Source: a bacterium
GTDB taxonomy: Bacteria; Zhuqueibacterota; Zhuqueibacteria; Residuimicrobiales; Residuimicrobiaceae
DNA length: 64,000 nt
Reading direction: 5' to 3'
Assembly (NCBI GenBank): GCA_035419245.1
Contig: DAOLSP010000018.1
Coordinates: 130 to 64,129, forward strand
Below, piece by piece: positions 1 through 23,287 of the stretch. The stretch's first letter is position 1. Each line of letters begins with the position of its first letter. Both the position numbers and the translations under genes were made by a program. Under the pieces are notes generated by a model. It was not told where the DNA came from. It saw only the letters and a program-made list of their open reading frames with translations, and did not search any database.

Positions 1-786
1 CGCTCTTCAATCATAAATTTACGTTCAAAGGGCTGACCGGCTTGAGCGATATTTTGCTGATGCTGGTATGCACCGCCCTGCCGATGCTTTTCGCTACCTC
101 GCTGACCCTGGTCATCTGGGACCTGCGCGATTTCGCCCGCCTCCACATTCATCGGCACTTTCTCCCTGCTGCTGCTGGCCGAGATCCTCATCGCCGGGCT
201 GATCTACCCGAATCTGCACCGGCACATCGCGGCATCGGCCATAATCTCCCGGCGGAGGTCGGCACGGCAGTCCATTCCCTTTGCGCTGACCGATCTGCTG
301 CTCTTCATCCTTTTCTTTGCCGCTGTGCATCAGCTCAAGTACGGCACGACCGCGATGGATTCACGCAGCTGGATGATGCTGGGCATCATGGCGGGGATGT
401 GGCTGCTCAGCGCCGAGTGGACCGGCAAATTTATCAAACACCAGCATCCCAATTTTTACTATCTCTTTGAGCCCTTTGTCAAGGCGGCCTTTATCATGAC
501 CGCTTCGACGGCGGTGCTGATCTGGGACTTTCAGCTCTTCGCCTACTCGCGCACCCTGCTCCTGGCGCCGGTCCTGCTGCTGCTGGCGGCCGAGGCGCCC
601 CTGGCGCTGATCTGGATGCGCATCCGTTCGGTCAAGGCGGAGGAGCGGGACGTGGAAGACGCGGCGGCCGTCAGCCTGCTGCTGGAGGAAAAGGAGCTAG
701 CGCTGGCGCCGGCGGGCGAATTGAAAGAGGCGGCGCGGCACCGGCTGGAAAACCACTTTCTAATGAAAAATCTGCTTGTTGGTTAA
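1..786 (+). CDS. 5'-truncated (window edge) polytopic membrane protein. Paralog of the N-terminal membrane domain of the downstream sugar transferase. The reading frame switches near nt ~143 (frame of ORF 42..470 to frame of ORF 325..786).
   Basis: Across two frames the translation reads LLMLVCTALPMLFATSLTLVIWDLRDFARL / TFIGTFSLLLLAEILIAGLIYPNL...SIPFALTDLLLFILFFAAVHQLKYGTT...MLGIMAGMWLLSAEWTGKFIKHQHPNFYYLFEPFVKAAF. This aligns colinearly with aa ~95-290 of the 888..2891 product (TLLMLLAVSLLLTIQDARDFNRL / YILGTFAGLLLGELFIVGLNYPRV ... SIPLIFLDLLLFILLFLFVYFFKYST ... FGIMTGMWVLSAKWTGKFEKRNHPSFYHACEPFVKAAF). Stop codon at 784-786. Confidence 0.5.
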
Positions 787-887
787 TTCAGAGAATTGAC
801 CAGGTTTTTTCGACTCAATGATGAATTCTCCGTAACGGCATCTATTCATCTCTTACGGAAGGTCAGGTATCACTCGGGGAGGGGGAA

Positions 888-2891
888 ATGCTGTTTTTCG
901 TACAGGTTTTACAGCCGGCAGTTGCGGCTGCCAGGCAAAACTGGAGGGTGATGAGTCCGCGCAAACTGGCATTTTTTGATGGGCTGCTGCTGAATGTGCT
1001 CTTTCTGGCCATCCACTTTTTCGTCACCGGCACTCTGCGCCTGCCAACTGTTTATTTTAAACTGCTACTGCTACTTAACAGCGCCTGGCTCTTTTTTTCC
1101 TTGCTGGAACACAAGTTTTCGCTGCGCCATATCCATTCATTTGCTGAACTGGCGTTCAAACTCGTTCAAATTACCCTGCTCATGCTGCTCGCCGTCTCGC
1201 TGCTGCTGACTATTCAGGACGCCCGCGATTTCAACCGGCTCTATATCCTCGGCACCTTCGCCGGCTTATTGCTTGGCGAGTTGTTCATCGTCGGCCTCAA
1301 TTATCCCCGGGTTTATGCGGGCATGCTGCAGGCGGCGGAGCAGGCGCCGGCGCGCATGCGCTACCCCTATTCCATCCCCCTGATCTTTCTCGACCTGCTG
1401 CTCTTTATCCTGCTCTTCCTGTTTGTCTATTTTTTCAAGTATTCTACCTTCGAGCTGGAGCTGCGGCACTGGCAGCTCTTTGGCATCATGACCGGCATGT
1501 GGGTGCTCAGTGCCAAATGGACCGGGAAATTCGAGAAACGCAATCACCCCAGCTTTTATCACGCCTGCGAGCCCTTTGTCAAGGCCGCCTTCATCCTGGC
1601 CGCCGCGGCGGCGCTGCTGCTATATTCCTTCCATATCTTTAATTACTCACGCACCATCCTTTTCGCTCCGGTGGCCTTGCTGCCGCTTTTGGAGGCCCCG
1701 GTGGTGCTGATCTGGCACCGCGTCCGCTCGGTGGAACAGCCGGCGGACGAGGAGGATATCGAGAGCGCCCAGGGCATCCAGCGCTTCCTCGAGGAGACGG
1801 CCCTGGAGGTCAGTGCAGCGGATTCCTTCAGCGAATCGGCGCGCAGCAAGCTGGGCGAGTATATCCTCGTCAGCCATCCGGCCCTGCATGCCCTGATCGA
1901 ACGGCGCTGCAAACTGGACACTATCGCGGTCGAAGGCCTGGAGGTGATGGATACCCGCACCTCCTTCAACGTCCATACCCTCGAAAACCAGTCGCTGCAG
2001 ATGTTCGTCAACCTCCACCGCGTCAACGATTTCCGACGGCTCAATTACTATTTCCTCGAGGTGCATCAAAAACTGGTCAAGGGCGGCTATTTTATCGGCC
2101 TCATGGACACGGTCGATGCCGCCATGCTGCGGCTGCAGAAGAAATATCCCAAATATATGGCCTATGCCCTCTACGGTCTCGATTTTTTCTGGCGGCGGAT
2201 GATGCCCAAGATCCCCGGCCTCAACAAGATCTATTTCTCCATCTCGCGCGGCCGGCGCCGCCTCTTCTCCAAGGCGGAACTGCTCGGCCGCCTCTATTTC
2301 TGCGGTTTCCGGGTGCTGGCCGCCGAGAATCATGAGGGCCAGCTCTATTATGTGGCGCAAAAGGACAAGAAACTGAAACATGCCCAGGATCCCTCCTACG
2401 GCATGCTGATCCGGCTGCCGCGTGTCGGCTTTCAGGGGCGGCCTATCCTGCTTTACAAACTGCGCACCATGCACCCCTATTCCGAATTCATCCAGGCCTA
2501 TGTTTACAACCATCACAAGCTCGACAACGGGGGCAAGCTCAAGGACGATTTCCGCGTCGCTGCCTGGGGCAGGCTGCTGCGCAAGCTCTGGCTCGACGAG
2601 CTGCCGCAATTGATCAACTGGATGCACGGGGACCTCAAGATCGTGGGTGCGCGCGCCCTCTCGCCGCACTATTTCAGCCTCTATCCCGAGGATCTGCAGG
2701 CGCTGCGCATCCAGTTCAAGCCGGGGCTCATCCCGCCTTACTATGCCGACCTGCCACAGAGCCTGGAGGAGATCCAGGAGTCCGAACGGCGCTATTTCGC
2801 GGCCAAGCTGGCCCATCCCTTCAAAACGGACTGGATCTATTTCTTCAAGGCGATGTATAATATTCTCGTCAAACGGGCGAGAAGCAAGTAA
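888..2891 (+). CDS. Polyprenyl-phosphate glycosyl-phosphotransferase-like (bacterial sugar transferase, WbaP/EpsL-type C-terminal domain). It has an unusual, internally duplicated N-terminal membrane domain and a middle domain of unknown function.
   Basis: C-terminal motifs are typical of the Bac_transf family: LYKLRTMHPYSE (KFRTM-like), DELPQLINWMHGDLKIVG, KPGLIPPYYAD, but the canonical VGPRPE is replaced by IVGARALSPHY. A Shine-Dalgarno GGGAGGGGGAAATG lies upstream. 667 aa with several predicted TM helices. Confidence 0.7.
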   Translation: MLFFVQVLQPAVAAARQNWRVMSPRKLAFFDGLLLNVLFLAIHFFVTGTLRLPTVYFKLLLLLNSAWLFFSLLEHKFSLRHIHSFAELAFKLVQITLLMLLAVSLLLTIQDARDFNRLYILGTFAGLLLGELFIVGLNYPRVYAGMLQAAEQAPARMRYPYSIPLIFLDLLLFILLFLFVYFFKYSTFELELRHWQLFGIMTGMWVLSAKWTGKFEKRNHPSFYHACEPFVKAAFILAAAAALLLYSFHIFNYSRTILFAPVALLPLLEAPVVLIWHRVRSVEQPADEEDIESAQGIQRFLEETALEVSAADSFSESARSKLGEYILVSHPALHALIERRCKLDTIAVEGLEVMDTRTSFNVHTLENQSLQMFVNLHRVNDFRRLNYYFLEVHQKLVKGGYFIGLMDTVDAAMLRLQKKYPKYMAYALYGLDFFWRRMMPKIPGLNKIYFSISRGRRRLFSKAELLGRLYFCGFRVLAAENHEGQLYYVAQKDKKLKHAQDPSYGMLIRLPRVGFQGRPILLYKLRTMHPYSEFIQAYVYNHHKLDNGGKLKDDFRVAAWGRLLRKLWLDELPQLINWMHGDLKIVGARALSPHYFSLYPEDLQALRIQFKPGLIPPYYADLPQSLEEIQESERRYFAAKLAHPFKTDWIYFFKAMYNILVKRARSK

Positions 2892-2999
2892 GGCCGTTCC
2901 TACCCTGGAGAAGCAGGGTGGGAACGAGAGAATGGGCGGGTGGGAACCAGCGTAACCAGAGTAATCTGCGGGTACGAACCGGAGTATAACCAGGCATCC

Positions 3000-4502
3000 A
3001 TGAACAGGCATCTGCTGCTCGCACTTTTGACACTCCTTCCCCTTTACGCCCGGGCCCAGGATCAGGCTTCTACTTATTTCGATACGCCGGCTTTGACGCC
3101 TTTCCTCGGCTATGCCGTGCAGTCGGGCCGGATGCAGCTCCCCTTCGTCCTCAACCAGCCCTGGACCACCCTCGAGGTCCTCCAGGCGGCGCTCGGCAGC
3201 GCCCGCAAGGGCATGCCCCCCTGGCAGCAGCATTGGCTGCGGCTGCTGATCAAAGAGATCGCTTTGTACCATCGCGTGGAGAAGAACGAAACCGACGGCT
3301 TGGGCTATCTCGGCGCTCAGGGCTGGTACCGAGGCTTCAGCGATGATGCGGATCAATGGACCGAGGCGCGCGGCGAACTAGAGGGCAAATTCACCACCCC
3401 GTGGTTCGTCCTGGCGCAAAAGACCGTCCTCGACCAGCATTTCAAATTCGATCCCGCCTTCAGCGGCGACACCGGCGAGTGGATCTACGGCCGGGCCGAA
3501 ACCGGCTATCTCCTGGCGCAGTACAAGGGCGCGGCTTTTTTTCTCGGCCGCCTCAGCCGCAACTGGGGGCCGCCCGGCGAGAAGGGGCTGATCCTCTCCG
3601 ATAACCCCTACAGCTATGATACGGCCGGTTTCCAGCTCGGCAGCCGGCGCTTCCGCTTCTCCTTTTATACCAGCCGGCTCAACGATATGCACGGCATCGA
3701 TACCCAGTCGGCTGACTCCACCTGGAAGGAGTATACCCGCTTTTGGTCGATCAAGCGCTTCGACCTGGCGCTGCGTCCCAATCTGCAGATCGGCCTCGCC
3801 GAGGCGGCGGTCTATGGCGCGGTTAACGGCACCTGGCAGATGATCTATCTCAACCCCTTCAACCTCTACTACGTCGAGCAGCGCAACAACCGGGTACAAA
3901 TGAACGGCCTCTGGTGCGCCGACCTCTTCTGGAAGCCCGCTCCCCGGTTCACCCTGTACGGGCAGTATCTCATCGACGATATCATCGTCAATAACGAGCC
4001 GGGCCAGAACGACCGCGCCCGCCACCCCGACCGCATGGGGGTGACCGCGCGTGTGGTGGTCAGCGATCTGCCGGCCGCGGGGGCGCAACTCGGATTCACC
4101 TATACCCGCATAGGCAACTGGACCTACATGTCCTACCGCAATTATGAAAATTATCTTTCCAACGGCCTGAGCATGGGCTATCCGGCCAACCGCATCGAGC
4201 AGGCGGGGATCGATCTCTCCTGGTTCGGCTGGAAGGCCTGGGCAGTGCAGTTGCGGGCCGGTTATGCCCGCCAAGGGAGCCAGGATCTGACGGCCCCCTT
4301 CGGCGACACGCGCGAGTCCTTTCCGCTCGGTGTGGTTTCTTACTGGACCCGCGGCGAACTCTCGGTCAGCTATGTGCCCGCAATCTGGTGGGATGCGCGG
4401 CTCTTCGCCGCAATCGATCACCGCGATGCGCCGGCGGCCGTGGATCATTTCCGCATCGGCGCGGTATTGCATGTAAAGTATAGTGTGGCGGGGCGATTTT
4501 AG
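3000..4502 (+). CDS. Secreted outer-membrane beta-barrel-like protein in the polysaccharide locus (possibly a Wzi-like capsule assembly protein).
   Basis: Signal peptide MNRHLLLALLTLLPLYARAQ. The protein is aromatic/Gly-rich with an alternating pattern and ends in ...HVKYSVAGRF, the terminal-Phe OMP signature. The ORF track starts it at 2940; the internal Met at 3000 precedes the signal peptide. Confidence 0.5.
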   Translation: MNRHLLLALLTLLPLYARAQDQASTYFDTPALTPFLGYAVQSGRMQLPFVLNQPWTTLEVLQAALGSARKGMPPWQQHWLRLLIKEIALYHRVEKNETDGLGYLGAQGWYRGFSDDADQWTEARGELEGKFTTPWFVLAQKTVLDQHFKFDPAFSGDTGEWIYGRAETGYLLAQYKGAAFFLGRLSRNWGPPGEKGLILSDNPYSYDTAGFQLGSRRFRFSFYTSRLNDMHGIDTQSADSTWKEYTRFWSIKRFDLALRPNLQIGLAEAAVYGAVNGTWQMIYLNPFNLYYVEQRNNRVQMNGLWCADLFWKPAPRFTLYGQYLIDDIIVNNEPGQNDRARHPDRMGVTARVVVSDLPAAGAQLGFTYTRIGNWTYMSYRNYENYLSNGLSMGYPANRIEQAGIDLSWFGWKAWAVQLRAGYARQGSQDLTAPFGDTRESFPLGVVSYWTRGELSVSYVPAIWWDARLFAAIDHRDAPAAVDHFRIGAVLHVKYSVAGRF

Positions 4503-4850: not shown

Positions 4851-7115
4851 ATGCCTCCTGAAGATGCTGCCACGGCAAAAGAATGGGAACTGCGCGACTA
4901 TCTCGATCTTGCCCTCCGGCGCAAAACGGTGATTCTTATAGCCTTCATCCTGACCTTTCTGATCACGGCGGCCTATCAGCTTACGCGGACGCCGGTCTAC
5001 AGCGCCTTCACCTCATTTATCATCGACGAGTCCGCCAGCAGCTCCGGCGTCGGCTCGGAGCGCTATAATCCCTATGCCTACTGGATGGAACGGGGCAAAC
5101 CGATCGAATACTACCAGGCGATCATGGGGAGCCAGGTCTATCAGGTCAAAATCAGGGAGCGGGCCGGCCGCGATGCCGATCTCCTTGGCACGCCCGGCGT
5201 CACCCGTGAGCAGATCGACCGCGCTATCGCCAGCATCAGCCTGGGGATGGATGAAGAATCCAAGTTGATGACCATCTCCGTGCAGGCGTTCCATCCGCTC
5301 GTGGCCTTTAAAGTGGCGCAGATCGCCACCGATGTCTTCCGCGAGCGCAACCAGGAGATCGATGTCGAAAGCGCCCAGGACGTAGTGCGCTTCATCGACA
5401 AACAGCGCCAGGAGGCCCAGGACCGCCTCGAGGAAGCGGAGCGCGCCCTGCAGCAGTACAGCGGCGCCGGCCAGGTGGTCTTTATCGGCGACGACGGCGG
5501 CATGATGAGCAAGGTCGCCCAGGTGGAGTCCATCCTGGAACAGGCCGAAACCGAGCGCCGCCTGGCGGAGAGCAATTACGCTTCCTACACCATGCAGCTG
5601 GAGGCTGCGGGAAAACAAGGCAGCCTGCAGTCGGCCGAATCGTTCCCCGAGGTGGCCGACCTGCGGAAACGCCTCGATCAGCTCGAGGACCAGCGCAATG
5701 CCCTGGCGGTCGCGCCTCAGGCGGACAGCCTTGCCGCGGCGGAACTGGACCGCAAGATCGATAGCGTCAAGGCCGAGCTGCGCCGCGCTATCCTCGCCCA
5801 TTCGACCGAGGCGATGCCGACCGAAGACCGGAAGACCGATGAGATGCGCTCGATGCTGACGCAGAAAGTGGTTGCCGAGCAGATCAACCTCAGCTCGACC
5901 CGCAACCGCGAGCGCTTTTATAACAACCTGCTCGAGGAGTACCGCCGCCAGAGTCCGGAGCGGCTCGAAAAGACGATGGAGCTGGCGCGGCTGCGCCGCA
6001 CCCAGGCGGTCCACCAGAATCTTCTGAATTATCTCGTCGAGCGTCATGAAGAGGCCAAGATCAAGGCGGCGACCGGCGCCGGCGGCCTCCGTATTGTCAA
6101 TCCGGCGGCCCTGCCCGAGCGGCCGAACTCTCGCAATCTGCCGCGCACCCTGCTGATCGGAGCGATGCTGGGCCTGGGGCTGGGATTCGGTCTCGCCATG
6201 CTGCAGGAGTATCTCGACCAGACCGTGCGCACGCGGCAGGATCTCGAGCGGCTCACGGGGGTGCAGGTTGTCGGCCAGATCCCGCTGGCCATCAAACTGA
6301 ACGGCAACAACGGCCACACGCCCCGCACCGGCAGGGTCCGAGCCATGCTCGAAAAGCAGAGCAAAAAGCGGATGGATGGCCAGGGGGAAACGCCCTATTA
6401 TCCCCTGATCAACAAATATGATCCGCATGCACCCTTTGCCGAGGCTTTCCGCAGCCTGCGCACGGATCTGCAATTCTTCAGCATCGACAAGCCGCTCAAC
6501 AAGCTGCTGGTCACCAGCTCGATCCCCGGCGAGGGCAAGACCCTGGTGACCGCCAATCTGGCCATCTCCCATGCGGAGCTGGGCCACAAGGTGGTGATCC
6601 TGGATGCTGATATCCGCAAGCCCAAGCAGCCCACGGTCTTCGGCGTCGATCGCAAGCCGGGTTTCACCGATTATTTTATGGATCTGGTGCCTTACGAGAG
6701 CATTGTCCGCCATCTGCCGGTGCGCGGCCTCGATCTGATCCCCTCGGGCACCGTCCCGCCCAATGTCGGTGAGGTGCTCAACAGCCAAAAGATGGCCGAT
6801 CTGGTCGAACGGCTGGAGGCGGAATACGATTTTGTCCTGGTCGATGCGCCGCCGGTGCTCAGCATCAGTGATGCCAAGGCGCTCTCGCGTATCGTCGAGA
6901 ACCTGCTCCTTGTTTTCCGTTTCGCCAAAACCGAAAAGCATTATGTGCGCGAGGTGGTGGCCAATCTGCGAAACATCAAAGCCACGATTATCGGCTTTGT
7001 CTTCAACGGCATCGAGCTGGGCAGTGGCAAGGGGTATTACAAATACTACTATTACTCCGAGTACCGGGAAAAACTCGACACGCCGCGGGTTGTAGAATCG
7101 GCGCAGGTGAACTGA
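4851..7115 (+). CDS. Polysaccharide co-polymerase / BY-type tyrosine autokinase (Wzc/GumC/EpsG-like chain-length determinant with C-terminal kinase domain).
   Basis: The architecture is an N-terminal TM, a long coiled-coil periplasmic region, a second TM (LLIGAMLGLGLGFGLAML), then a cytoplasmic P-loop domain. Motifs are Walker A SSIPGEGKTLVTANLA, A' VVILDADIRKP, B FVLVDAPP and a C-terminal tyrosine cluster YYKYYYYSEY. Confidence 0.85.
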   Translation: MPPEDAATAKEWELRDYLDLALRRKTVILIAFILTFLITAAYQLTRTPVYSAFTSFIIDESASSSGVGSERYNPYAYWMERGKPIEYYQAIMGSQVYQVKIRERAGRDADLLGTPGVTREQIDRAIASISLGMDEESKLMTISVQAFHPLVAFKVAQIATDVFRERNQEIDVESAQDVVRFIDKQRQEAQDRLEEAERALQQYSGAGQVVFIGDDGGMMSKVAQVESILEQAETERRLAESNYASYTMQLEAAGKQGSLQSAESFPEVADLRKRLDQLEDQRNALAVAPQADSLAAAELDRKIDSVKAELRRAILAHSTEAMPTEDRKTDEMRSMLTQKVVAEQINLSSTRNRERFYNNLLEEYRRQSPERLEKTMELARLRRTQAVHQNLLNYLVERHEEAKIKAATGAGGLRIVNPAALPERPNSRNLPRTLLIGAMLGLGLGFGLAMLQEYLDQTVRTRQDLERLTGVQVVGQIPLAIKLNGNNGHTPRTGRVRAMLEKQSKKRMDGQGETPYYPLINKYDPHAPFAEAFRSLRTDLQFFSIDKPLNKLLVTSSIPGEGKTLVTANLAISHAELGHKVVILDADIRKPKQPTVFGVDRKPGFTDYFMDLVPYESIVRHLPVRGLDLIPSGTVPPNVGEVLNSQKMADLVERLEAEYDFVLVDAPPVLSISDAKALSRIVENLLLVFRFAKTEKHYVREVVANLRNIKATIIGFVFNGIELGSGKGYYKYYYYSEYREKLDTPRVVESAQVN

Positions 7116-8041
7116 TGGTGGAGCACTGCCGCTGGTATTCTATCGGAGATATTACGCTGCAGGTCGAGAGCGATCTGCCTTTTTCTTCCAATACTTTCAG
7201 TGATAAACTCGAGCTCTTTCGCATAGCTTCACCCGGTCCGGACGTGGTGACCGTGCGCCACCATTTCGGTCTGCCGGATATGGCCGGTTGGGATCTCAGC
7301 CGGGAGAAATACCGCCGCGAGCCCTGGGCGATCTACCAGACGGATAAGGGATGGATTTACCTGGGGATTCTGCCGCAGGGATTCGGAGAAAAGCTGTGGA
7401 AGGTGGTGGTATTTAGTCCGGAGCACTCGCAGGCCGATATCTATCATCCGGATGAGTTGGCGTTTGTCCAGGGCGGCGCAACTTCGTTGACCCTGTTTCC
7501 TTCGGATCAGATTTTGGTGGCGCGGCTGCTGGCTGACCGTTCCGGATGTTACCTGCATTCAGCCGGGGCAATTCTGGACGGCCATGGAATGCTCTTTGTC
7601 GGCCACTCCGAGGCGGGCAAATCGACGACCACGCAAATGCTGATCGATGCCGGGGCGCGCGGAGATCTGGCGGCGGAGATCCTCTGCGATGACCGCAACA
7701 TCGTACGGCGGTTTGATGACGGCTGGCGGGCTTATGGTTCCTGGAGTCATGGTGATATTCCTGTGGTCTCCGCCGCCTTGGCGCCGCTGCGGGCAATCTG
7801 TTTTATTGAAAAGTCGGCCAAGAACAGTTTGACGCCGTTGACCGACCGGCAGGAGATCATCCGGCGATTACTCGCCTGCGTGATCAAGCCGTTCGTCACC
7901 GCGGAGTGGTGGGAGAAAACCATCGATGTGGTGGCGCAGCTGGCAGCGGAAGCCAGGTTTTTTCTCATGCGTTTTGACAAGAGCGGTAAAATCGTCAGTG
8001 ATCTGGTCAGGATAGCTCGTTCATCAGAGCAGAACGGCTGA
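7115..8041 (+). CDS. HPr-kinase/phosphorylase-related P-loop protein (HprK-like kinase, copy 1), of the kind found in peptide-maturation neighbourhoods.
   Basis: P-loop FVGHSEAGKSTTTQMLIDAGA followed by ILCDDRNIVRR, matching HprK C-domain GxSGxGKS and the DD motif. Its ATG overlaps the Wzc stop (TGATG at 7113-7117). Paralog of 24493..25389. Confidence 0.7.
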   Translation: MVEHCRWYSIGDITLQVESDLPFSSNTFSDKLELFRIASPGPDVVTVRHHFGLPDMAGWDLSREKYRREPWAIYQTDKGWIYLGILPQGFGEKLWKVVVFSPEHSQADIYHPDELAFVQGGATSLTLFPSDQILVARLLADRSGCYLHSAGAILDGHGMLFVGHSEAGKSTTTQMLIDAGARGDLAAEILCDDRNIVRRFDDGWRAYGSWSHGDIPVVSAALAPLRAICFIEKSAKNSLTPLTDRQEIIRRLLACVIKPFVTAEWWEKTIDVVAQLAAEARFFLMRFDKSGKIVSDLVRIARSSEQNG

Positions 8042-8097
8042 ATTTTCCAGAAACGAAAGTTGGATCAGACCAGATTCGGGAGGGAATTTCTTAAATC

Positions 8098-9453
8098 ATG
8101 TCGTATGTTCGACGATTGTACCCTCATGAATTCCATGCCTGTCACAAGGAGCCGCTGCTCGAGCATCTTGATCTCGAGTTGACTGAACGCTGCAACAACG
8201 CCTGCATCCACTGCTGTATCAATCAGCCCGAGCACGACGCAGAATTGGCGGCCCGGGAGATGGATACGGCGTTTGTCAAGTATCTGTTGAGGCAGGCAGC
8301 TGATTTAGGTGCGATTTCTGTTCGCTTTACCGGCGGAGAGCCTTTATTGCGCAGTGATTTCACCGAGCTCTATCTCTTCGCCAGACGTTTGGGGATGCAG
8401 GTGACGCTCTTTACCAACGGCCGGCTTATCACTCCGGAACTGGCGCAGCTGCTGGCGATCATTCCGCCCGGCAAGCCGGTGGAGGTGACGGTCTATGGCA
8501 TGCACCCGGAATCCTACGACGCCGTGGCTGCCTGTCGAGGCGCTTTCGCGGAATTTTGGCGCGGCATCGGCCTGTTGCAAGAGTATGGCATTCGTTTCAC
8601 GGTCAAACAGAGTCTGCTGCCGCCCAACCGGGGCGAGAGAGCGGAATTCGAAACCTGGGCCGCGACGCTGCCGGAAATGAAACAGCTGTCCGGATACAGC
8701 ATGAATTTCGAGCTGCGCGGCCGCCGCGATCATCCGGCCAAAAACCGGCTCATCGAATCGTTCCGTCTCACGCCGGAGGAGACGGTGGCCCTGCTGGCGG
8801 AGCGTCCGGGATATATCGATGAGATGCGCCAGTTCTGCAGCAAATTCATGGCTCCCCCAGGAGAACTGGTTTTTCAGTGCGGTGCAGGCAAGGGCGTCAT
8901 GGTGGATGCTTATGGCAAAGCCCAGATGTGTATGGGGCTGCGCCACCCGGATTATGTCTACGATTTGTACCAAACCGCTCAAGCGGAGGCTGCTGGCATA
9001 TCACCACTGAAATTTGCATTGACACATGTTTTTCCTGAATGGCGCGAAATGAAGGCAGCCCACCCGGAGTATCTGAGCCGTTGCGCCCGTTGTTTTCTCA
9101 AGGGGCTGTGCGAACAGTGTCCCGCGCGTTCATGGCAGGAGCATGGTACGCTGGATACGCCGGTTGAGTATCTTTGCAATGTCGCTCATGCACAGGCTCG
9201 GCACCTGGGCCTCCTTGCAGCTGGCGAAAAAGCCTGGGAAGTAAAAAACTGGCGCGAGCGCATCGCCCGGTTCAGCAGCAGAGAAGCAGGTAAAGTTTTC
9301 AAAATGGAACTTAATGAAAAAAGGATAAATGATGGAAACCGCTCTCAATTTGAACAGCATCTGTACGCCGTCGGAAGATATCGTGGCGCGGGAGATCGAA
9401 GGCGAGTTGATCATCATCCCTCTTGCCGCCGGAATCGGCGATATGGAGGATGA
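8098..9453 (+). CDS. Radical SAM / SPASM-domain peptide-modifying enzyme (copy 1).
   Basis: rSAM motif LTERCNNACIHCC (CxxxCxxC), GGEPLL, and C-terminal SPASM cysteines (FQCGAGKGVMVDAYGKAQMC ... CARCFLKGLCEQCPARSW ... YLCNVAHAQA). An RBS GGGAGGGAA lies upstream. The last ~42 aa are an Arg-rich tail that overlaps the PqqD gene; see the A6-run finding. Confidence 0.9.
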   Translation: MSYVRRLYPHEFHACHKEPLLEHLDLELTERCNNACIHCCINQPEHDAELAAREMDTAFVKYLLRQAADLGAISVRFTGGEPLLRSDFTELYLFARRLGMQVTLFTNGRLITPELAQLLAIIPPGKPVEVTVYGMHPESYDAVAACRGAFAEFWRGIGLLQEYGIRFTVKQSLLPPNRGERAEFETWAATLPEMKQLSGYSMNFELRGRRDHPAKNRLIESFRLTPEETVALLAERPGYIDEMRQFCSKFMAPPGELVFQCGAGKGVMVDAYGKAQMCMGLRHPDYVYDLYQTAQAEAAGISPLKFALTHVFPEWREMKAAHPEYLSRCARCFLKGLCEQCPARSWQEHGTLDTPVEYLCNVAHAQARHLGLLAAGEKAWEVKNWRERIARFSSREAGKVFKMELNEKRINDGNRSQFEQHLYAVGRYRGAGDRRRVDHHPSCRRNRRYGG

Positions 9454-9637
9454 GCTATATACCCTGAACGAAACCGGCAAGGTGATCTGGGGCCGCATGG
9501 ATGGGAGTGCAACGCTCGGGCAGATCGCAGCAGCATTGGCCGATGAGTACAATGCGCCCTTGAATGAGATCGAGCAGGACGTGTTGGGATTGGTCAACGA
9601 AATGGTTCGACGGAAAATTATCCATGCAAAATCATAA
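9329..9637 (+). CDS. PqqD-family peptide chaperone (RiPP recognition element, RRE).
   Basis: 102 aa: EIEGELIIIP...LNETGKVIWGRMDGSATLGQIAAALADEYNAPLNEIEQDVLGLVNEMVRRKII, which matches the PqqD consensus LN.TA..IW.L.DG.RT..EI...L...Y......IE.DV..FL..L. Confidence 0.85.
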   Translation: MMETALNLNSICTPSEDIVAREIEGELIIIPLAAGIGDMEDELYTLNETGKVIWGRMDGSATLGQIAAALADEYNAPLNEIEQDVLGLVNEMVRRKIIHAKS

Positions 9638-9723
9638 ATCATGAGTTTTAGTTTTAATGTCTAATTCATGCTGGAAATGATCCGGCGTAATCACTCTTTC
9701 AATCTTAGCGGAGGAAAGCCAAG

Positions 9724-9897
9724 ATGAAAACCAATGCAAATCAGTGGAAAAAGCCGGAATTGCTCGTTCTGACTCGCAGTAACCCGGAAGAGGCTGTGTT
9801 GACCGGATGTAAAAATGTGACTATTAATGGCCCTAAGTCCGGACAGAAATACTGTCAGGGGCCAGTAGCCCAGTGTACGAACGTAGCTGGCAGTTGA
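9724..9897 (+). CDS. Precursor peptide (57 aa) with PqqA-like leader and three-Cys core: MKTNANQWKKPELLVLTRSNPEEAVLTGCKNVTINGPKSGQKYCQGPVAQCTNVAGS. Not in the ORF track because it is under 60 aa.
   Basis: Strong RBS GCGGAGGAAAGCCAAGATG. It lies immediately downstream of PqqD and the rSAM gene. The leader WKKPEL resembles the PqqA WKKPAF. A second copy with the same leader sits beside the paralogous rSAM at 23063..23245. Cys at positions 29, 44 and 51. Confidence 0.75.
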   Translation: MKTNANQWKKPELLVLTRSNPEEAVLTGCKNVTINGPKSGQKYCQGPVAQCTNVAGS

Positions 9898-10125
9898 AAA
9901 CGGCTGAGAAGGATCACTCAAGCACCTGGTTACTGATAAAGTAACAGGACTTCCAAAATCCTGAGAAGATATCATGGATTATTCAGGGTTCAGGAGCATG
10001 CGGAAGCAGTGTGCACATTTGTAAAGCAACCCCCGCTTCCAATGGAGAAAATAAAAGCGACGATGTCATCGTGATCCATAAACACCCCCAGCGTAATCTG
10101 ATCGTCTGAATGGAGGACGAATTGA

Positions 10126-10662
10126 ATGCGCCTGGGCAAGATTGCAAAGGGGATGCTGCGCCGGTTGCAGGACAGGGCGATCTATCGTTCTCTTTGGCGA
10201 AAGCTTGCCCCTCAACTCACGCTCCGAGAGGCATCAGACAGAGATTTGCTCCTCGTTCATCAATGGCTTAACGGCACCAGGGATTTCGAGCTGCAGCGCT
10301 CCCCGAACTTGACCGAATGGGTGGCTCTTTATCGTGGTCACATTGTTGGCTTTGTCCAACTGATTCGTTATCCGCAGGATAATGAACTTTATCAGGGGTA
10401 TTGGCTTTTCAGCATGAATGTCAAACCGCTCCGGCGCGGAATGGGAATTGGCAGTGCATTAACACGAACCGTAATAAATCGTGCTTGCGATGAAAGTGCG
10501 CCTTTTCTGGATTTGCTGGTTTTCGAGGATAATCTGCGCGCAATCAGGCTCTACGCCAAAATGGGATTTGAGCCCTGCATAATCCCGGCGCTAGAGCCCT
10601 CACTTGAAAAGGAACGGGAAGTATATGGCCGACGCCGGCTGGTGATGCGGAAAGTATTCTGA
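10126..10662 (+). CDS. GNAT-family N-acetyltransferase.
   Basis: QGYWLFSMNVKPLRRGMGIGSALTRTVINRA...RAIRLYAKMGFEP, i.e. GNAT motifs A and B. RBS GGAGGA upstream. Confidence 0.75.
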   Translation: MRLGKIAKGMLRRLQDRAIYRSLWRKLAPQLTLREASDRDLLLVHQWLNGTRDFELQRSPNLTEWVALYRGHIVGFVQLIRYPQDNELYQGYWLFSMNVKPLRRGMGIGSALTRTVINRACDESAPFLDLLVFEDNLRAIRLYAKMGFEPCIIPALEPSLEKEREVYGRRRLVMRKVF

Positions 10663-10875
10663 TTTTCAGAACCAGACAAACCACGTTAAAATATTACTTT
10701 GGAAAGAGCATTTTTGAATTTGAAGCAGGTGGAACTGGATTTTCGTTCGGCTAAGGTGACATTTCAGGGCACATGCTCCGAGGTGCGCGAAGTGTGTTAA
10801 GCGTGATGCTGCCGCAATGATTGGGTTGTCGGCATAACAGCGGAAGAATACGCGAACGGATTATTCCAGGCTCAA

Positions 10876-11493
10876 GTGATCTGTTCCTTGACCAACAAAG
10901 AATGTAAAAGGTCGGATGAAACCTGCCGTTACCGCATCTATCGTCTCAGCAAACGCACCGATAATAGCTGTGTCTATCTTGAGGACAATCGCTGCTCCAA
11001 TTATGAAATACGGCCGCAGGTATGCCGCGATTTCCACTGCCAGACAGGTTGGAAGCTCGCTTCGGTCTTTCCCGATTCCAGCGTATTGGGAGATGGAGGC
11101 TCGACGCTCACCCTGGACCGTTTTCTCGACCAGATCACGGATGACGCAGTATTTGTGCCGCATCCGCTTATCAAGGTACATGCTGTTTTTTACCTGCGGC
11201 CCAAACAGTCTATTATTTTTGTTAAAGAGATGGTTGGCGGTTGCGGCAAATTCAACAGCAGAGATGATCTATATTCTCCGCTGCTCGATGATGACAAGTT
11301 GATGCTGTTGATCGGCCTTTTTACATACAAGGAAACTTTGGGGCAGCTTTTCACGAGATTTACAGACCAGGCGGCTGTTGCCTTGAGTCGCAGAGAGTTT
11401 CTCACACTGGTTTGGCTGCTCAATAAACATAATATCGTCATTGATTCGCGCAATTTCAGGGGCATGCTGGCCGGCATGGGCGGAATTGAGTAA
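10876..11493 (+). CDS. YkgJ/UPF0153-type cysteine-cluster (putative Fe-S or zinc) protein.
   Basis: CxxC...C pattern NKECKRSDETC ... SCVYLEDNRCSNYEIRPQVCRDFHC, typical of YkgJ-family CxxCxxCC domains. Apparent GTG start, so start uncertain. Confidence 0.5.
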   Translation: MICSLTNKECKRSDETCRYRIYRLSKRTDNSCVYLEDNRCSNYEIRPQVCRDFHCQTGWKLASVFPDSSVLGDGGSTLTLDRFLDQITDDAVFVPHPLIKVHAVFYLRPKQSIIFVKEMVGGCGKFNSRDDLYSPLLDDDKLMLLIGLFTYKETLGQLFTRFTDQAAVALSRREFLTLVWLLNKHNIVIDSRNFRGMLAGMGGIE

Positions 11494-11566
11494 CGAAGGC
11501 TGTCATATCACGTTCATCAGTGATCCTTCACGGCAAACCCTGCCCAACCCGGAATTCGCTGAACTG

Positions 11567-11992
11567 ATGGCGGCGGTTCTGGCCAAGGGCACTCTTTTCA
11601 GGTTTCAGGCCAGCGGCAGCAGTATGGCCCCCTTCATCAGAGGGGGGGATGTACTTACCTTTGCGCCAATCACCAAACCTCCTGGTCTGGGGGAAATAGC
11701 AGCTTTTCGTCAGCCTGTAACCGGGCGGCTGATGGTGCACCGGATCATCCGCCGGCGTCAAGGTCTTTTTCTTATCAAAGGTGATAACAGCTGCCATCAT
11801 GATGGTTGGGTGCCCTCAGAGAATATTCTTGGCCGCGTTAGCCGCATTGAACATCGGGAGCGAACGGTTCGGTTGGGCCTGGGCTGGGAGCGCATTCCGA
11901 TCGCAGCACTCTCACGGCTCGGCCTACTGTGGCCCCTCTCACAGGCAATGCGCCGGCTGTTGCGGCCGGTTTATAAAAGGTTTTTTGCATGA
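11567..11992 (+). CDS. Small soluble S24/S26-family serine peptidase (LexA/signal-peptidase fold). Candidate leader peptidase.
   Basis: FRFQASGSSMAPFIRGGDVLTF matches the S26/S24 nucleophile box (GxSMxP...GD). No TM segment. The ORF track starts it at a TTG at 11441, the internal Met at 11567 is more plausible, and the gene ends in ATGA overlap with the downstream rSAM gene. Confidence 0.6.
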   Translation: MAAVLAKGTLFRFQASGSSMAPFIRGGDVLTFAPITKPPGLGEIAAFRQPVTGRLMVHRIIRRRQGLFLIKGDNSCHHDGWVPSENILGRVSRIEHRERTVRLGLGWERIPIAALSRLGLLWPLSQAMRRLLRPVYKRFFA

Positions 11993-21103: not shown

Positions 21104-21943
21104 TTATACCCGCTTTTGTACTACCGCGCCAGCAACCTCATAGGTATCGTTTGCTTGAATTTCAATGAGTTCAAGTTCAGCCTGGGCGACTTCTTTCCGC
21201 AATTCTTCCATGTTGGTGAAAGAATGGGAAAATTCCCGGTTAAATTTAAGCATGTCGCCTTTTTCATACTGCACATTGCCAGCGCAAAGCCATGCCAGCA
21301 TCTTTTTGATTCTGTCTGTACTTGCGGAACCGGTTGCCTGGGGATGCCATGAAAACTCAAAAACAAAATAGCCCCCGGCCCTCAGTGCACTGCCCACTCG
21401 CTGTAGCAGCTCGATTCGCTTTTTTCGTGTTGGTATGGAGGAATACATCGCTGAGGAGAGCCAGGCTAAATCGAATCTGCTTGCCGGCACATTCAGATCG
21501 GTGATATCCTGGACCATACCGGAAATCTGCACACCACGCCTTCGGGCATAGGCTATTGCCGATTCGACCATTTGGGGAACATAATCAATGCCTGTGATCT
21601 CAAAACCTCTTTTCGCCAAAGAGATTGCTTCCCGTCCTCCTCCCAAGCCGAGCAGGAGCACGTGCCCTTTTCTCAATCCGGTACTAGTCAGCAGCGATTC
21701 TTCCAGATCTCTCAAACCGGAGTCGTTTCTCTGCTCATCACACCAATAGTTAATTTCATCCGGATTTGAGTAAAACCGCCTGCTGAATTCAACGAGGTCA
21801 TCCGGACGCATAACGATCACTGCGCATGATTGGATAAATTTTCCAAACTTGATAAGAAAATTTGCGGCCTTGATTCTCAGTTTCATAGAGTCCGTCCATC
21901 TGTTGATCTGCAGCAGAATGGAATTGATGCAAGCAAGAGGCAA
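21104..21943 (-). CDS. Class I SAM-dependent methyltransferase.
   Basis: Motif I VLLLGLGGGREAISLAKRG, post-I GIDYVPQMV, and GGYFVFEF. Confidence 0.75.
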   Translation of the reverse strand: MPLACINSILLQINRWTDSMKLRIKAANFLIKFGKFIQSCAVIVMRPDDLVEFSRRFYSNPDEINYWCDEQRNDSGLRDLEESLLTSTGLRKGHVLLLGLGGGREAISLAKRGFEITGIDYVPQMVESAIAYARRRGVQISGMVQDITDLNVPASRFDLAWLSSAMYSSIPTRKKRIELLQRVGSALRAGGYFVFEFSWHPQATGSASTDRIKKMLAWLCAGNVQYEKGDMLKFNREFSHSFTNMEELRKEVAQAELELIEIQANDTYEVAGAVVQKRV

Positions 21944-21956
21944 TCTCGTGCAGATT

Positions 21957-22850: not shown

Positions 22851-22880
22851 CCACTACCTTTAATAAAGCAGTCAAGGGTA

Positions 22881-22920
22881 ATCAAATATCCTCTCACCGG
22901 CGCATGCACCGGTGAGAGGA
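22881..22920 (-). terminator. Candidate intrinsic terminator (minus orientation) downstream of precursor-2: 11-bp GC-rich stem CCTCTCACCGG/CCGGTGAGAGG with loop CGCATGCA, followed by AUAUUUGAUU on the minus-strand RNA.
   Basis: Perfect inverted repeat at 22891-22920. A U-rich tract follows in the minus-strand sense. It lies between precursor-2 and the UPF0489-like gene. Confidence 0.45.
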
Positions 22921-23245: not shown

Positions 23246-23287
23246 GATCATTTTCTCCTTTATTTAGGGACTTTGGATTTTCCACTT

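What the first reader, a model, noticed from the sequence alone, without database searches (positions are those of the whole stretch)
1..2891. Sugar transferase with an atypical duplicated membrane domain, preceded by a frameshifted paralog of that domain
The 667-aa protein has a Bac_transf-type C-terminus (KLRTMHPYSE, DELPQLINWMHGDLKIVG) that deviates at the usual VGPRPE motif (IVGARALSPHY). It has a long non-canonical multi-TM N-terminus and a middle domain of unknown function. The upstream partial gene (1..786) is a paralog of residues ~95-290 of that N-terminal domain, and its frame breaks at about nt 143 (…DFARL | TFIGTF…). This indicates gene duplication with decay, or a sequencing error. 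If functional, a stand-alone copy of this membrane module would imply an independent role, for example as an anchor or partner for the peptide system.
Basis: seen in the sequence. Interest (0 to 1): 0.55.

Follow-up and report, generated by a model that had tools for sequence, protein, structure and literature searches.

The report
Sugar-transferase gene beside a decayed copy
The 667-residue gene is an intact member of a widespread, unstudied branch of the bacterial sugar-phosphate transferases that start capsule or slime synthesis, and the broken gene in front of it is an ordinary dead partial copy of a second such gene lying just outside the window.

Summary

**The fragment (window 1-786)**
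- It is a pseudogene. It copies a 663-aa paralog ("A") 3.4 kb upstream, outside the window, not the adjacent 667-aa gene ("B"): 91-94% nucleotide identity to A, 89% versus 47% protein identity.
- It has lost about 30 codons with start and ribosome-binding site, and everything after A codon 323.
- It carries one extra base at window 148. That frameshift appears in eight assemblies, so it is not a sequencing error. One strain lacks it.
- It lies at a recombination junction, next to toxin-antitoxin genes.
- No stand-alone membrane-module family was found.

**Gene B (888-2891)**
- B is intact and conserved.
- Its membrane domain is an internal duplication of a four-helix module (hhalign E 9e-24).
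- A degenerate methyltransferase-like domain follows, then a PglC-like catalytic core.
- The core keeps the Asp-Glu dyad. It has A/V-R-A/P instead of PRP, and no hydrophobic re-entrant helix precedes it.
- These traits are family-wide: at least 584 hits in species-representative genomes.
- With Wzi-like and Wzc-like genes downstream, B is probably the initiating transferase of an exopolysaccharide pathway.

The pseudogene is ordinary. The protein family is an uncharacterised variant of a known kind.

The parts
1..761 (+). In-window part of pseudogene A'. It is a partial copy of the 663-aa paralog A (A nt 209-968). Homology begins about 115 nt before window position 1, at A nt 94.
   Evidence: blastn gives 93.6% identity over 761 nt with one gap to L001 4371-5130. 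The full extent is 876 nt at 91%. The frame-corrected protein is 89% identical to A and 47% to B.
147..149 (+). Frameshift site: one extra base (window 148) relative to gene A and to the strain L095 copy. Reading switches from frame 3 to frame 1.
   Evidence: Global alignment places the gap at window 148. The four-haplotype alignment shows it in L001, L096 and L097 but not in L095 or gene A.
325..786 (+). Residual 153-aa ORF (GTG start) that gene callers annotate as a hypothetical protein. It covers helices 6-8 of the A-type membrane domain plus a linker. There is no Shine-Dalgarno sequence.
   Evidence: ORF list; called as a 153- or 143-aa gene in the public contigs; no Pfam family; sequence read directly.
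762..786 (+). 3' junction. Homology to gene A ends at 761 (A codon 323). Seven unrelated codons (MKNLLVG) and a TAA stop follow.
   Evidence: The junction and tail are identical in all four haplotypes.
779..813 (+). Terminator-like hairpin followed by a T-run, right after the pseudogene stop. This is a weak consensus match only.
   Evidence: 11-pair stem with 3 G-C pairs, tail GTTTTTTCGA.
876..885 (+). Strong Shine-Dalgarno-like run (GGGGAGGGGG) 2-11 nt before the ATG of gene B. Homology with the sister strain L007 begins at about window 863.
   Evidence: Sequence; blastn of L001 against L007.
888..2891 (+). Gene B: intact 667-aa member of an uncharacterised clade of the monotopic phosphoglycosyl-transferase (Bac_transf) superfamily.
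960..1313 (+). Membrane module 1 (residues 25-142, helices 1-4).
   Evidence: AF2 helices and hydropathy; internal repeat by hhalign, E 8.7e-24.
1374..1727 (+). Membrane module 2 (residues 163-280, helices 5-8). This is the module shared by all family members, including the 4-helix forms.
1920..2372 (+). Degenerate class-I methyltransferase-like (Rossmann-like) domain, residues about 345-495. Its conserved signature is NLHRVNDFR. The Gly-rich SAM motif is replaced by VLDTHT.
   Evidence: Foldseek hits to SAM methyltransferases with prob 1.0, E 2e-3 to 2e-2, TMt 0.31-0.43; AF2 secondary structure; family alignment; no Pfam methyltransferase hit.
2400..2867 (+). PglC-like catalytic core, residues 505-660. 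It contains KLRTM (524-528), the Asp570-Glu571 dyad (window 2595-2600), A588-R589-A590 in place of PRP (window 2649-2657) and KPGLIPPYY in place of KPGxTGxWQ.
   Evidence: hhalign against classical large PGTs, prob 99.2 over residues 505-655; hmmsearch against PDB WbaP 8t53 and PglC 8e37; Foldseek to PglC, E 2e-5, TMt 0.59.
2037..2087 (+). Approximate recombination breakpoint inside gene B relative to sister strain L007. Gene nt 1-1150 are about 13% divergent. Nt 1200-2004 are identical.

Best explanation
Two separate things sit in window 1-2891.

(1) Window 1-786 is pseudogene A'. It is a dead partial copy of a 663-aa transferase gene A that lies 3.4 kb upstream of the window.
- A' keeps only A codons about 32-323.
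- It has no start codon, promoter-proximal region or ribosome-binding site.
- Its 5' end abuts what looks like the stub of a truncated toxin gene, directly after a UPF0175 antitoxin gene.
- In the window's strain it also carries a +1 frameshift at position 148.
- It marks the junction between a strain-variable cassette region of a polysaccharide locus and a conserved export region. It is most simply a scar of locus-swapping recombination, with later sequence exchange between A and A'. It is not expected to make a functional protein.

(2) Window 888-2891 is intact gene B. Shown: B has two tandem four-helix membrane modules, a degenerate methyltransferase-like domain, and a PglC-like catalytic core with the Asp-Glu dyad and the KxRTM motif. 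A/V-R-A/P replaces PRP, and no hydrophobic re-entrant helix lies next to the core.

Inferred:
- B sits in the inner membrane with both ends in the cytoplasm (even helix number, positive-inside pattern).
- The membrane module, rather than a re-entrant helix, presents the lipid acceptor.
- The product feeds the Wzi-like/Wzc-like export machinery encoded immediately downstream.
For: **Pseudogene**
- 91-94% nt identity to gene A over 876 nt with a single 1-nt gap.
- 89% aa identity to A against 47% to B.
- An in-frame stop lies upstream. The first ATG falls inside helix 2 and has no Shine-Dalgarno sequence. A 31-codon stub ORF follows the UPF0175 gene.
- The 3' junction is at A codon 323, followed by 7 novel codons.
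- The same frameshift is in six assemblies of this strain plus L096 and L097, and is absent in L095.
- dN/dS is 0.32-0.35 against 0.14 for B orthologues over the same region.
- The closely related strains L007/L008 have a completely different upstream region. They share homology only from window 863, and there is a breakpoint inside B.
- More distant relatives carry a single copy followed by the Wzi-like gene, and where the contig continues also a Wzc-like gene (L009).

**Gene B**
- Pfam Bac_transf at 68 bits.
- The profile matches WbaP and PglC structures only over the core. hhalign prob 99.2 for residues 505-655.
- AF2 mean pLDDT 77.7. Foldseek finds PglC (E 2e-5) and SAM methyltransferases.
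- D570, E571, K524, R526 and R589 are invariant in 20 family members.
- In the 74 of 80 species-representative loci where the motif was found, the Arg is always kept and the first Pro is absent from 73. A DE-x-P motif was found in 77 of 80, and KPG-x-x-PP-F/Y-Y in 58 of 80.
- Internal repeat E 8.7e-24, with reversed and shuffled controls at E >= 0.08.
- No hydrophobic segment lies beyond residue 281.
- A and B are the only Bac_transf-related genes in about 71 kb.
- Wzi-like and Wzc-type tyrosine autokinase genes lie directly downstream. TIGR01007 scores 156 bits against a cut-off of 108.
Against: **Pseudogene**
- In strain L095 and two other contigs the fragment is an uninterrupted 269-273-aa ORF.
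- Both junctions are perfectly conserved among four haplotypes.
- dN/dS of 0.3 is below 1. Some of that comes from constraint on gene A and from gene conversion. Expression of a truncated membrane protein in some strains therefore cannot be excluded.
- The order of recombination events is inferred, not reconstructed.

**Gene B**
- No enzyme of this clade has been assayed.
[quoted passage not shown] It was not found here.
- The 'PRP nucleotide-binding motif' (PMC10186338) is altered.
- The donor, the acceptor, or even the reaction type could therefore differ.
- pTM is only 0.49, so domain packing is unreliable, and coordinates could not be inspected.
Confidence: 0.8

Rival explanations
1. The frame break is a sequencing or assembly error, and window 1-786 is part of an intact upstream gene.
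For: The break is a single-base indel. One strain (L095) and the parent gene A lack it.
Against: The identical extra base is in six independent assemblies from different samples, and in haplotypes L096 and L097, which differ elsewhere. Even when the frame is corrected, the ORF lacks about 30 N-terminal codons, a start codon and an RBS. It ends 7 codons after A codon 323, so about 340 codons including the whole catalytic part are missing.
Confidence: 0.03
2. The truncated copy is a functional stand-alone membrane protein: 269 aa where unbroken, or the 153-aa residual ORF here. It would act as an anchor or partner for gene B, the export machinery or the neighbouring radical-SAM peptide system.
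For: An unbroken 269-273-aa ORF exists in some strains. Junctions are conserved across haplotypes. dN/dS is 0.32, not about 1. WbaP-type enzymes are dimers (PMC10312794), so a membrane-module partner is conceivable.
Against: - The ORF would start inside helix 2, which breaks the first four-helix module and changes topology.
- There is no Shine-Dalgarno sequence, whereas A and B have strong ones.
- It is frameshifted in three of four haplotypes.
- It is absent from sister strains L007/L008 and from more distant relatives.
- The short N-domain hits that could be checked were artefacts of contig ends or frameshifts.
- The low dN/dS is explained by constraint on A and by A-to-A' gene conversion.
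Confidence: 0.07
3. A' is kept as a silent donor cassette. Gene conversion between A' and A diversifies the membrane domain of A (or repairs A'), by analogy with silent-cassette variation systems.
For: The interior of A' is polymorphic between strains in a mosaic that often matches A alleles, while both flanks are identical. In contig L003, A and A' are homogenised over A nt 650-823, and there are no other differences in about 16 kb.
Against: The L003 mosaic alternates at a 1-3-nt scale and is identical in both copies. That is what de Bruijn 'bulge' collapse of a 94%-identical repeat would produce. Conversion between nearby repeats is expected without any selected function. A cytoplasmic-membrane helix bundle is an unlikely target for diversifying selection.
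Confidence: 0.07
4. Gene B is not a polyprenol-phosphate phosphoglycosyl transferase. It would be a catalytically diverged or regulatory relative, for example a pseudoenzyme partner of A or an enzyme with another acceptor, because it lacks the re-entrant helix and the PRP motif.
For: Pfam positions 1-34 and hhalign do not cover a re-entrant helix. No hydrophobic segment lies after residue 281. PRP is A/V-R-A/P. NCBIfam PGT models score far below their cut-offs, 88.6 against 295.6. The RMH is described as needed for PglC fold and activity (PMC6133551).
Against: The Asp-Glu dyad, KxRTM, the Arg of PRP and many further core residues are invariant across phyla. That argues for retained catalysis. 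dN/dS of B is 0.16. No canonical PGT lies in about 71 kb of the locus. Relatives carry a single copy directly upstream of the Wzi-like gene.
Confidence: 0.2

Closest known systems
Large monotopic phosphoglycosyl transferases (WbaP/WcaJ/CpsE type; TIGR03022/03023/03025; PDB 8T53)
   Same: The overall plan matches: N-terminal helix bundle, then a cytoplasmic Rossmann-like accessory domain, then a C-terminal PglC-like catalytic core with the Asp-Glu dyad. The gene sits in a Wzc-type polysaccharide locus (PMC10312794).
   Different: - The accessory domain is not CoA_binding_3 (PF13727) but a degenerate methyltransferase-like fold.
- No re-entrant helix lies between the accessory domain and the core.
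- PRP is replaced by A/V-R-A/P and TGxWQ by xPP(F/Y)Y.
- The membrane module shows no detectable homology to the WbaP bundle (E 0.23), and in this lineage it is duplicated to eight helices.
- Scores are far below the curated family cut-offs.
Small monotopic PGT PglC (PDB 8E37/8G1N/5W7L)
   Same: The globular catalytic domain is shared. Foldseek gives E 2e-5, TMt 0.56-0.59 and 26% identity. The HMM alignment runs from PglC residue 45 onward and includes the DE dyad.
   Different: PglC residues 1-44 have no counterpart next to the core. They form the re-entrant helix with Lys7-Arg8 and Ser23-Pro24, described as determinants of topology and activity in PMC6133551.
Gene remnants at recombination junctions of capsule and O-antigen loci (general knowledge of serotype-switching loci, e.g. 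pneumococcal cps)
   Same: A partial, disrupted copy of a conserved locus gene sits exactly where a strain-variable cassette meets the conserved part. A crossover point lies inside the conserved gene, and mobile toxin-antitoxin genes are nearby.
   Different: The organism is an uncultured digester bacterium whose closest genome hit is candidate division KSB1 at 50%. The duplicated gene belongs to the unusual PGT-like family. The comparison with cps loci rests on my own knowledge and was not tested here.
Class I SAM-dependent methyltransferases (e.g. Coq5 4OBW, CysG 9FD3)
   Same: The predicted fold of residues about 345-495.
   Different: There is no Gly-rich SAM-binding motif (VLDTHT instead), no predicted strand-2/strand-3 unit, and no Pfam methyltransferase hit. 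It is probably not a methyltransferase.

Membership tests
Monotopic PGT superfamily (Pfam Bac_transf PF02397) | Significant match to the family profile | tested here: met
   68 bits against a gathering score of 27, E 1e-18. Only profile positions 35-135 of 179 are covered. hhalign extends the match to the C-terminal helix, residues 505-655, prob 99.2.
Monotopic PGT superfamily (Pfam Bac_transf PF02397) | Asp-Glu catalytic dyad (PglC Asp93-Glu94; PMC10186338) | tested here: met
   D570-E571 align to the dyad. They are invariant in 20 family members. A DE-x-P motif was found in 77 of 80 species-representative loci.
Monotopic PGT superfamily (Pfam Bac_transf PF02397) | PRP nucleotide-binding motif (PMC10186338) | tested here: not met
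   B has A-R-A. Across 80 loci the counts are VRP 39, VRA 28, IRP 3, IRA 2, PRA 1, TRA 1, and 6 not found. The Arg is always kept, and the first Pro is absent from 73 of the 74 motifs found.
Monotopic PGT superfamily (Pfam Bac_transf PF02397) | [quoted passage not shown] | tested here: not met
   Pfam positions 1-34 are unmatched. hhalign starts at the 'GP' after the helix. The preceding residues are predicted strands of the methyltransferase-like domain. No 19-residue window with mean hydropathy >= 1.6 lies beyond residue 281. Helix 8 is predicted unbroken, and its Pro is not conserved.
Monotopic PGT superfamily (Pfam Bac_transf PF02397) | PglC-like fold of the globular domain | tested here: met
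   Foldseek to 8e37_A and 8g1n: E 2e-5, prob 1.0, TMt 0.56-0.59 over 158-169 columns. The model's mean pLDDT is 77.7.
Monotopic PGT superfamily (Pfam Bac_transf PF02397) | Transfer of sugar-1-phosphate to polyprenol phosphate | not testable with these tools
   Needs an enzyme assay.
Large PGT (WbaP/WcaJ/EPS_sugtrans; TIGR03022/03023/03025) | Score above the curated NCBIfam cut-off | tested here: not met
   The best is TIGR03025 at 88.6 bits against a cut-off of 295.6.
Large PGT (WbaP/WcaJ/EPS_sugtrans; TIGR03022/03023/03025) | CoA_binding_3 (PF13727) accessory domain (PMC10312794) | tested here: not met
   There is no PF13727 hit in B, A or any of the 20 family members. Classical hits P0021 and P0022 do carry it. 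The domain is replaced by a methyltransferase-like fold.
Large PGT (WbaP/WcaJ/EPS_sugtrans; TIGR03022/03023/03025) | N-terminal four-helix transmembrane bundle homologous to that of WbaP | tested here: inconclusive
   B has two four-helix modules. Profile comparison with the N-termini of four classical large PGTs gave E 0.23-0.25. The classical profile held only 4 sequences.
Class I SAM-dependent methyltransferase | Rossmann-like methyltransferase fold | tested here: met
   Many PDB methyltransferases match at prob 0.91-1.0, E 2e-3 to 2e-2, TMt 0.31-0.43.
Class I SAM-dependent methyltransferase | Gly-rich SAM-binding motif I and a sequence-family match | tested here: not met
   The motif position reads VLDTHT(x)2N in the family consensus. 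There is no Pfam methyltransferase hit.
Pseudogene (window 1-786) | Truncation relative to an intact parent at the 5' and 3' ends | tested here: met
   The fragment covers only A nt 94-968 of 1992. There is an upstream in-frame stop and a novel 7-codon tail.
Pseudogene (window 1-786) | Reading-frame disruption reproducible across independent data | tested here: met
   The +1 base at window 148 is in 6 assemblies and in L096 and L097.
Pseudogene (window 1-786) | Relaxed selection | tested here: inconclusive
   dN/dS is 0.32-0.35 against 0.14 for the functional B pair over the same region. The value is raised but confounded by constraint on A and by gene conversion.
Pseudogene (window 1-786) | No expression | not testable with these tools
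   Only the absence of a Shine-Dalgarno sequence could be read from the sequence.
Programmed +1 ribosomal frameshift | Shift-prone site with an in-frame stop or rare codon, conserved among relatives, restoring a full-length product | tested here: not met
   The site CTC CAC ATT CAT has no stop nearby; frame 3 stays open to 470. The extra base is absent from the parent gene and from L095. The product would still be truncated.

The most novel reading that the evidence does not exclude
The 667-aa protein represents a large, cross-phylum clade of PglC-fold enzymes. It is found in relatives of KSB1, Calditrichota, Desulfobacterota, Cloacimonadota, Bacteroidales, Ignavibacteriota and Aminicenantes. 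This clade would have dispensed with the supposedly indispensable re-entrant membrane helix. A dedicated four-helix membrane module (tandemly duplicated in some lineages) and a methyltransferase-derived pseudo-enzyme domain would position the catalytic core and bind the lipid acceptor instead. That would be a third architectural solution for initiating glycan assembly, beside polytopic MraY/WecA-type and monotopic PglC/WbaP-type enzymes. In a subset, including cultured Desulfosarcina variabilis, it may be functionally coupled to a SynChlorMet-like radical-SAM peptide cassette.
Probability: 0.3. Interest if true: 0.65.

Novelty: new variant of a known kind. Interest (0 to 1): 0.35.

Why it matters
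The broken upstream gene does not matter much. It is a recombination scar of the kind expected in strain-variable polysaccharide loci, and it warns annotators that the 'hypothetical protein' called there is a remnant.

The intact gene is more useful. Databases label its family only as 'sugar transferase', yet the family is common in anaerobic-digester, sediment and gut lineages. It keeps the catalytic dyad of the monotopic phosphoglycosyl transferases. It lacks the re-entrant helix and PRP motif that current structural work treats as hallmarks of that superfamily.

If active, the family would show that the PglC catalytic core can be attached to the membrane in a different way. It would also extend substrate and inhibitor studies to a neglected clade.

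Tried and rejected
1. A second homologue search with the family profile returned the same about 20 members. The word-index candidate list is saturated by generic Bac_transf proteins. The genome-contig scan was what revealed the breadth of the family.

2. I considered that helix 8 (YSRxxLFAPxLLLLxxEAP) is the displaced re-entrant helix and that the methyltransferase-like domain was inserted after it. The Arg-to-Pro spacing (16) matches PglC Arg8 to Pro24. I rejected this for four reasons. The Pro is not conserved in distant members. The Arg/Glu pattern recurs in helix 4, so it belongs to the repeated module. AF2 predicts one unbroken 27-residue helix. hhalign gives no such alignment.

3. The helix-Pro-helix insert at residues 422-453 (LDFxxRRxxPKxP) could be an interfacial membrane element.

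4. Homology of the four-helix module to the WbaP bundle was not detected: E 0.23-0.25 with a 4-sequence profile, and a weak TIGR03025 hit at E 0.1.

5. A Pfam scan of the 31-codon stub after the UPF0175 gene gave nothing. Calling it a truncated PIN-type toxin rests on position and on my own knowledge of UPF0175 partners.

6. A stand-alone N-domain family was not supported. Of the many short hits, only two could be checked, and both were artefacts. The length distribution of short hits is broad, as contig-end truncation would give.

7. O'Toole et al. 2021 (the PGT sequence-similarity network) and the 2021 review were not in the held library. I therefore could not check whether this architecture was already catalogued there. 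A search for 'ScmC' with 'radical SAM' found nothing.

It was rerun with P0005.

Full report
**What is in the sequence**

Window 888..2891 (+) is an uninterrupted 667-codon ORF, here called gene B, preceded by a strong Shine-Dalgarno-like run. Upstream, two overlapping reading-frame pieces resemble the N-terminal part of B: frame 3 up to about position 150 and frame 1 from about 145 to the stop at 784-786. Against an HMM of the family, the two pieces score E 5.9e-10 and 1.3e-63. The similarity is therefore homology and not hydrophobic composition.

The frame break is a single extra base at window 148. The window reads CACATTCATCGG where the intact parent reads CACATCC-TCGG.

**Where the fragment comes from**

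The public contigs that encode exactly this 667-aa protein extend beyond the left edge of the window. Window position 1 corresponds to L001 position 7582. The gene order there is:
- a hexapeptide-repeat protein (Pfam Hexapep, weak hit), an acyl-carrier protein, an AMP-ligase and a short-chain dehydrogenase;
- a second full-length 663-aa Bac_transf gene, gene A (L001 4163-6154; 56% aa identity to B);
- an MNT/HepT toxin-antitoxin pair;
- a UPF0175 antitoxin gene;
- the fragment, then gene B.

The fragment is 93.6% identical at the DNA level to gene A over window 1-761. With the 115 nt lying before the window, it is 91% identical over 876 nt (A nt 94-968), with exactly one gap. After frame correction the protein is 89% identical to A residues 71-326 and only 47% identical to B residues 72-330. 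The fragment, A', is thus a recent partial copy of A and not of the adjacent gene.

**Why it is a pseudogene**

- *5' end.* Homology to A starts at about codon 30, directly after an in-frame stop. The first ATG lies inside helix 2 and has no Shine-Dalgarno sequence. The 75 nt between the UPF0175 stop and the start of homology encode a 31-codon ORF (MIAVFDSSAWVFLSKLGVIEQ...). By position it looks like the stub of the cognate toxin gene. That is an inference; Pfam gives no hit on so short a piece.
- *3' end.* Homology stops at A codon 323, just after the membrane domain. Seven unrelated codons and TAA follow.
- *Frameshift.* See above.

The largest residual ORF (325-786, 153 aa) is what gene callers annotate as a hypothetical protein. 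It matches no Pfam family.

dN/dS between A' and A is 0.32, or 0.35 for the in-window part. For the functional B gene against its orthologue in a sister strain it is 0.14 over the same codons. That fits relaxed constraint on one of the two lineages.

**Not a sequencing error, and not strain-universal**

Six independent assemblies (L001-L006) carry the window's first 3 kb with the same extra base. Three further haplotypes (L095, L096, L097) show the same arrangement, A then MNT/HepT then UPF0175 then A' then B, with both junctions identical to the base. L096 and L097 share the frameshift. L095 lacks it, and there A' is called as a 273-aa ORF. Two other contigs carry a 269-aa form (P0026, P0191).

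The interior of A' is polymorphic among strains in a mosaic that often matches A alleles. In L003, A and A' are identical to each other over A nt 650-823, and nothing else differs over about 16 kb. This indicates either gene conversion between the two copies or, for L003, collapse of the 94%-identical repeat by the assembler. I could not tell which.

**Genomic setting**

In sister strains whose B is 93% identical (L007/L008), everything upstream of window 863 is replaced by unrelated genes (DUF354, NTP_transf_5). Within B, nucleotides 1 to about 1150 are 13% divergent and nucleotides 1200-2004 are identical. The following 10 kb are nearly identical. There is therefore a recombination breakpoint inside B.

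An A-type gene sits directly after a DUF354/NTP_transf_5 cassette like the one upstream of B in L007 (L092). More distant relatives have a single copy followed by the Wzi-like gene, and where the contig continues also a Wzc-like gene (in L009 the Wzc-like gene follows directly).

Together this describes a polysaccharide locus with a strain-variable cassette side and a conserved export side. The transferase gene serves as a crossover site. A' is a scar at the junction, in a stretch that also collects toxin-antitoxin modules. The exact order of events is inferred.

**The stand-alone hypothesis**

A profile of the N-terminal domain, searched against 1.84 billion representative proteins, found 404 proteins at E <= 1e-3. 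Full-length hits are about 640-690 aa, or about 500-530 aa for the form with one module. The many short hits span 95-585 aa with no clear peak.

The two short hits I could place were artefacts. One was cut by a contig end (P0025). The other was one of three consecutive ORFs that look like a single frameshift-split gene on a 2.7x-coverage contig (P0034). I found no evidence for an independent membrane-module family.

**What gene B is**

- *Sequence matches.* Pfam recognises only Bac_transf, and only profile positions 35-135. NCBIfam PGT models match the same stretch, far below their cut-offs.
- *Family size.* Twenty close-to-moderate relatives align end to end with 52% mean column identity. A pattern scan of species-representative genomes found at least 584 relatives. 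They occur in KSB1 (best, 50%), Calditrichota, Desulfobacterota (including cultured Desulfosarcina variabilis), Cloacimonadota, Bacteroidales, Ignavibacteriota and Aminicenantes.
- *Membrane domain.* AF2 (mean pLDDT 77.7, pTM 0.49) predicts eight long N-terminal helices. Seven are strongly hydrophobic. The positive-inside pattern places both ends in the cytoplasm. Residues 25-142 and 163-280 are an internal tandem repeat (hhalign prob 99.6, E 8.7e-24, 118 columns). Reversed and column-shuffled controls give E >= 0.08. About half of the 80 best genome hits start at residues 150-200, so they carry only the second module.
- *Middle domain.* Residues about 345-495 match class-I SAM methyltransferases structurally (Foldseek prob 0.91-1.0, E 2e-3 to 2e-2). 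They lack the Gly-rich motif (VLDTHT instead) and part of the sheet. The family signature NLHRVNDFR is conserved.
- *Catalytic core.* Residues 505-660 align to the catalytic core of classical large PGTs, from the 'GP' that follows the re-entrant helix to the C-terminal helix (hhalign prob 99.2). They also align to WbaP 8T53 and PglC 8E37 and match PglC structurally (E 2e-5, TMt 0.59).

**Conserved and deviant catalytic features**

K524, R526, T527 and M528 (KxRTM), D570-E571 (the dyad, PMC10186338) and R589 are invariant.

The 'PRP nucleotide-binding motif' (PMC10186338) reads A-R-A in B. Across 80 loci it reads VRP 39, VRA 28, IRP 3, IRA 2, PRA 1, TRA 1, with 6 not found. dN/dS of B is 0.16.

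The hallmark of the superfamily was not found next to the core. [quoted passage not shown] Three results bear on this:
- No profile coverage of it.
- The preceding residues are strands of the methyltransferase-like domain.
- No hydrophobic window lies beyond residue 281.

**Likely function**

A and B are the only Bac_transf-type genes in the about 71 kb available. B is followed by a Wzi-like outer-membrane protein and a Wzc-type chain-length/tyrosine-autokinase protein (TIGR01007, 156 bits against a cut-off of 108). YjbH-like proteins and an ABC ATPase lie further on.

I infer, at about 0.6 probability, that B is the initiating sugar-phosphate transferase for this export system. The membrane module would take over the lipid-presenting role of the missing re-entrant helix. 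The methyltransferase-like domain would play an accessory or regulatory role analogous to the nucleotide-sensing DUF of WbaP (PMC10312794). None of this has been assayed. A diverged reaction or a regulatory role remains possible, at about 0.2.

**Verdict**

The upstream fragment is an ordinary pseudogene with a well-resolved origin. The adjacent gene is a bona fide, conserved member of an uncharacterised architectural variant of the monotopic PGT superfamily.

I could not determine whether the published sequence-similarity network of the superfamily already lists this cluster, because the paper was not available.

Noticed in passing
window 7115-13113: A radical-SAM peptide cassette lies directly after the Wzc-like gene. 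Its parts are an HPr-kinase-like/ScmC-like protein, a radical SAM protein (451 aa; no SPASM hit in Pfam), a PqqD-like chaperone, a 57-aa ORF, a GNAT, a CxxCxxCC protein, an S24/signal-peptidase-like protein and a radical SAM/SPASM protein. The best NCBIfam hits are to the SynChlorMet cassette (ScmC/D/E/F), all far below cut-off. The ScmC-like, radical SAM and PqqD genes recur next to the PGT-like gene in L009. ScmC-like, S24, radical SAM and ABC genes recur near the family gene in Desulfosarcina variabilis (L030), and the radical SAM and ABC genes (plus S24 in L027) in L027 and L028.
   Followed up: partly
window 2037-2087 (gene B nt about 1150-1200): There is a sharp mosaic boundary inside gene B relative to sister strain L007. 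The 5' 1150 nt are about 13% divergent (dS 0.45) and the 3' 800 nt are identical (dS 0.035 for codons 324-667). A homologous-recombination crossover therefore lies within the gene.
   Followed up: yes
L003 3586-3734 (= window 468-616) and L003 349-434 (gene A): In contig L003 the only 13 differences from the window's strain over about 16 kb lie in the A/A' repeat. In that patch both copies become identical to each other in a fine-scale mosaic. This is either gene conversion or assembler collapse of a 94%-identical repeat.
   Followed up: partly
L001 6275-7455 (upstream of the window): An MNT/HepT toxin-antitoxin pair and a UPF0175 antitoxin gene sit between gene A and the fragment. The UPF0175 gene is followed by a 31-codon stub ORF that abuts the start of the pseudogene. 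An MNT/HepT pair 70% identical at the DNA level also lies upstream of the B-like gene in the more distant L009.
   Followed up: partly
L095 9093-10820; L096 8832-10559; L097 4754-5847: In other strains several extra small toxin-antitoxin-type genes are inserted between gene B and the Wzi-like gene: DUF4258/DUF2283, HicB-like and DUF433/PIN_10. The window has only 48 nt there.
   Followed up: no
L001 6165-6176 (just after the stop of gene A): A run of about 10 G lies immediately downstream of gene A (…CACCGGGGGGGGGGCCACC…). It could be a slippage-prone tract or a source of assembly trouble.
   Followed up: no
window 779-813: A terminator-like hairpin with a T-run lies right after the pseudogene stop, about 75 nt before gene B. 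If functional, B would need its own promoter in 814-887. No sigma-70-like match was found there.
   Followed up: no
window 2940-4502: The 520-aa ORF after gene B matches Pfam Caps_assemb_Wzi only weakly (E 5e-4, below cut-off) and matches no NCBIfam model. Public gene calls use a later start, giving 500 aa. Orthologues follow the PGT-like gene in Calditrichaceae MAG loci at E 3e-68 to 4e-76, and one lies upstream of it in a MAG labelled Cytophagia at E 8e-134.
   Followed up: partly
window 19100-20738 and 21104-25560: Further along there is an HD-CE/HD-domain protein overlapping a KaiC-like ATPase ORF. On the minus strand lie a methyltransferase, a UPF0489 protein, another radical SAM protein and a 354-aa protein with no family. 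This was not examined further.
   Followed up: no
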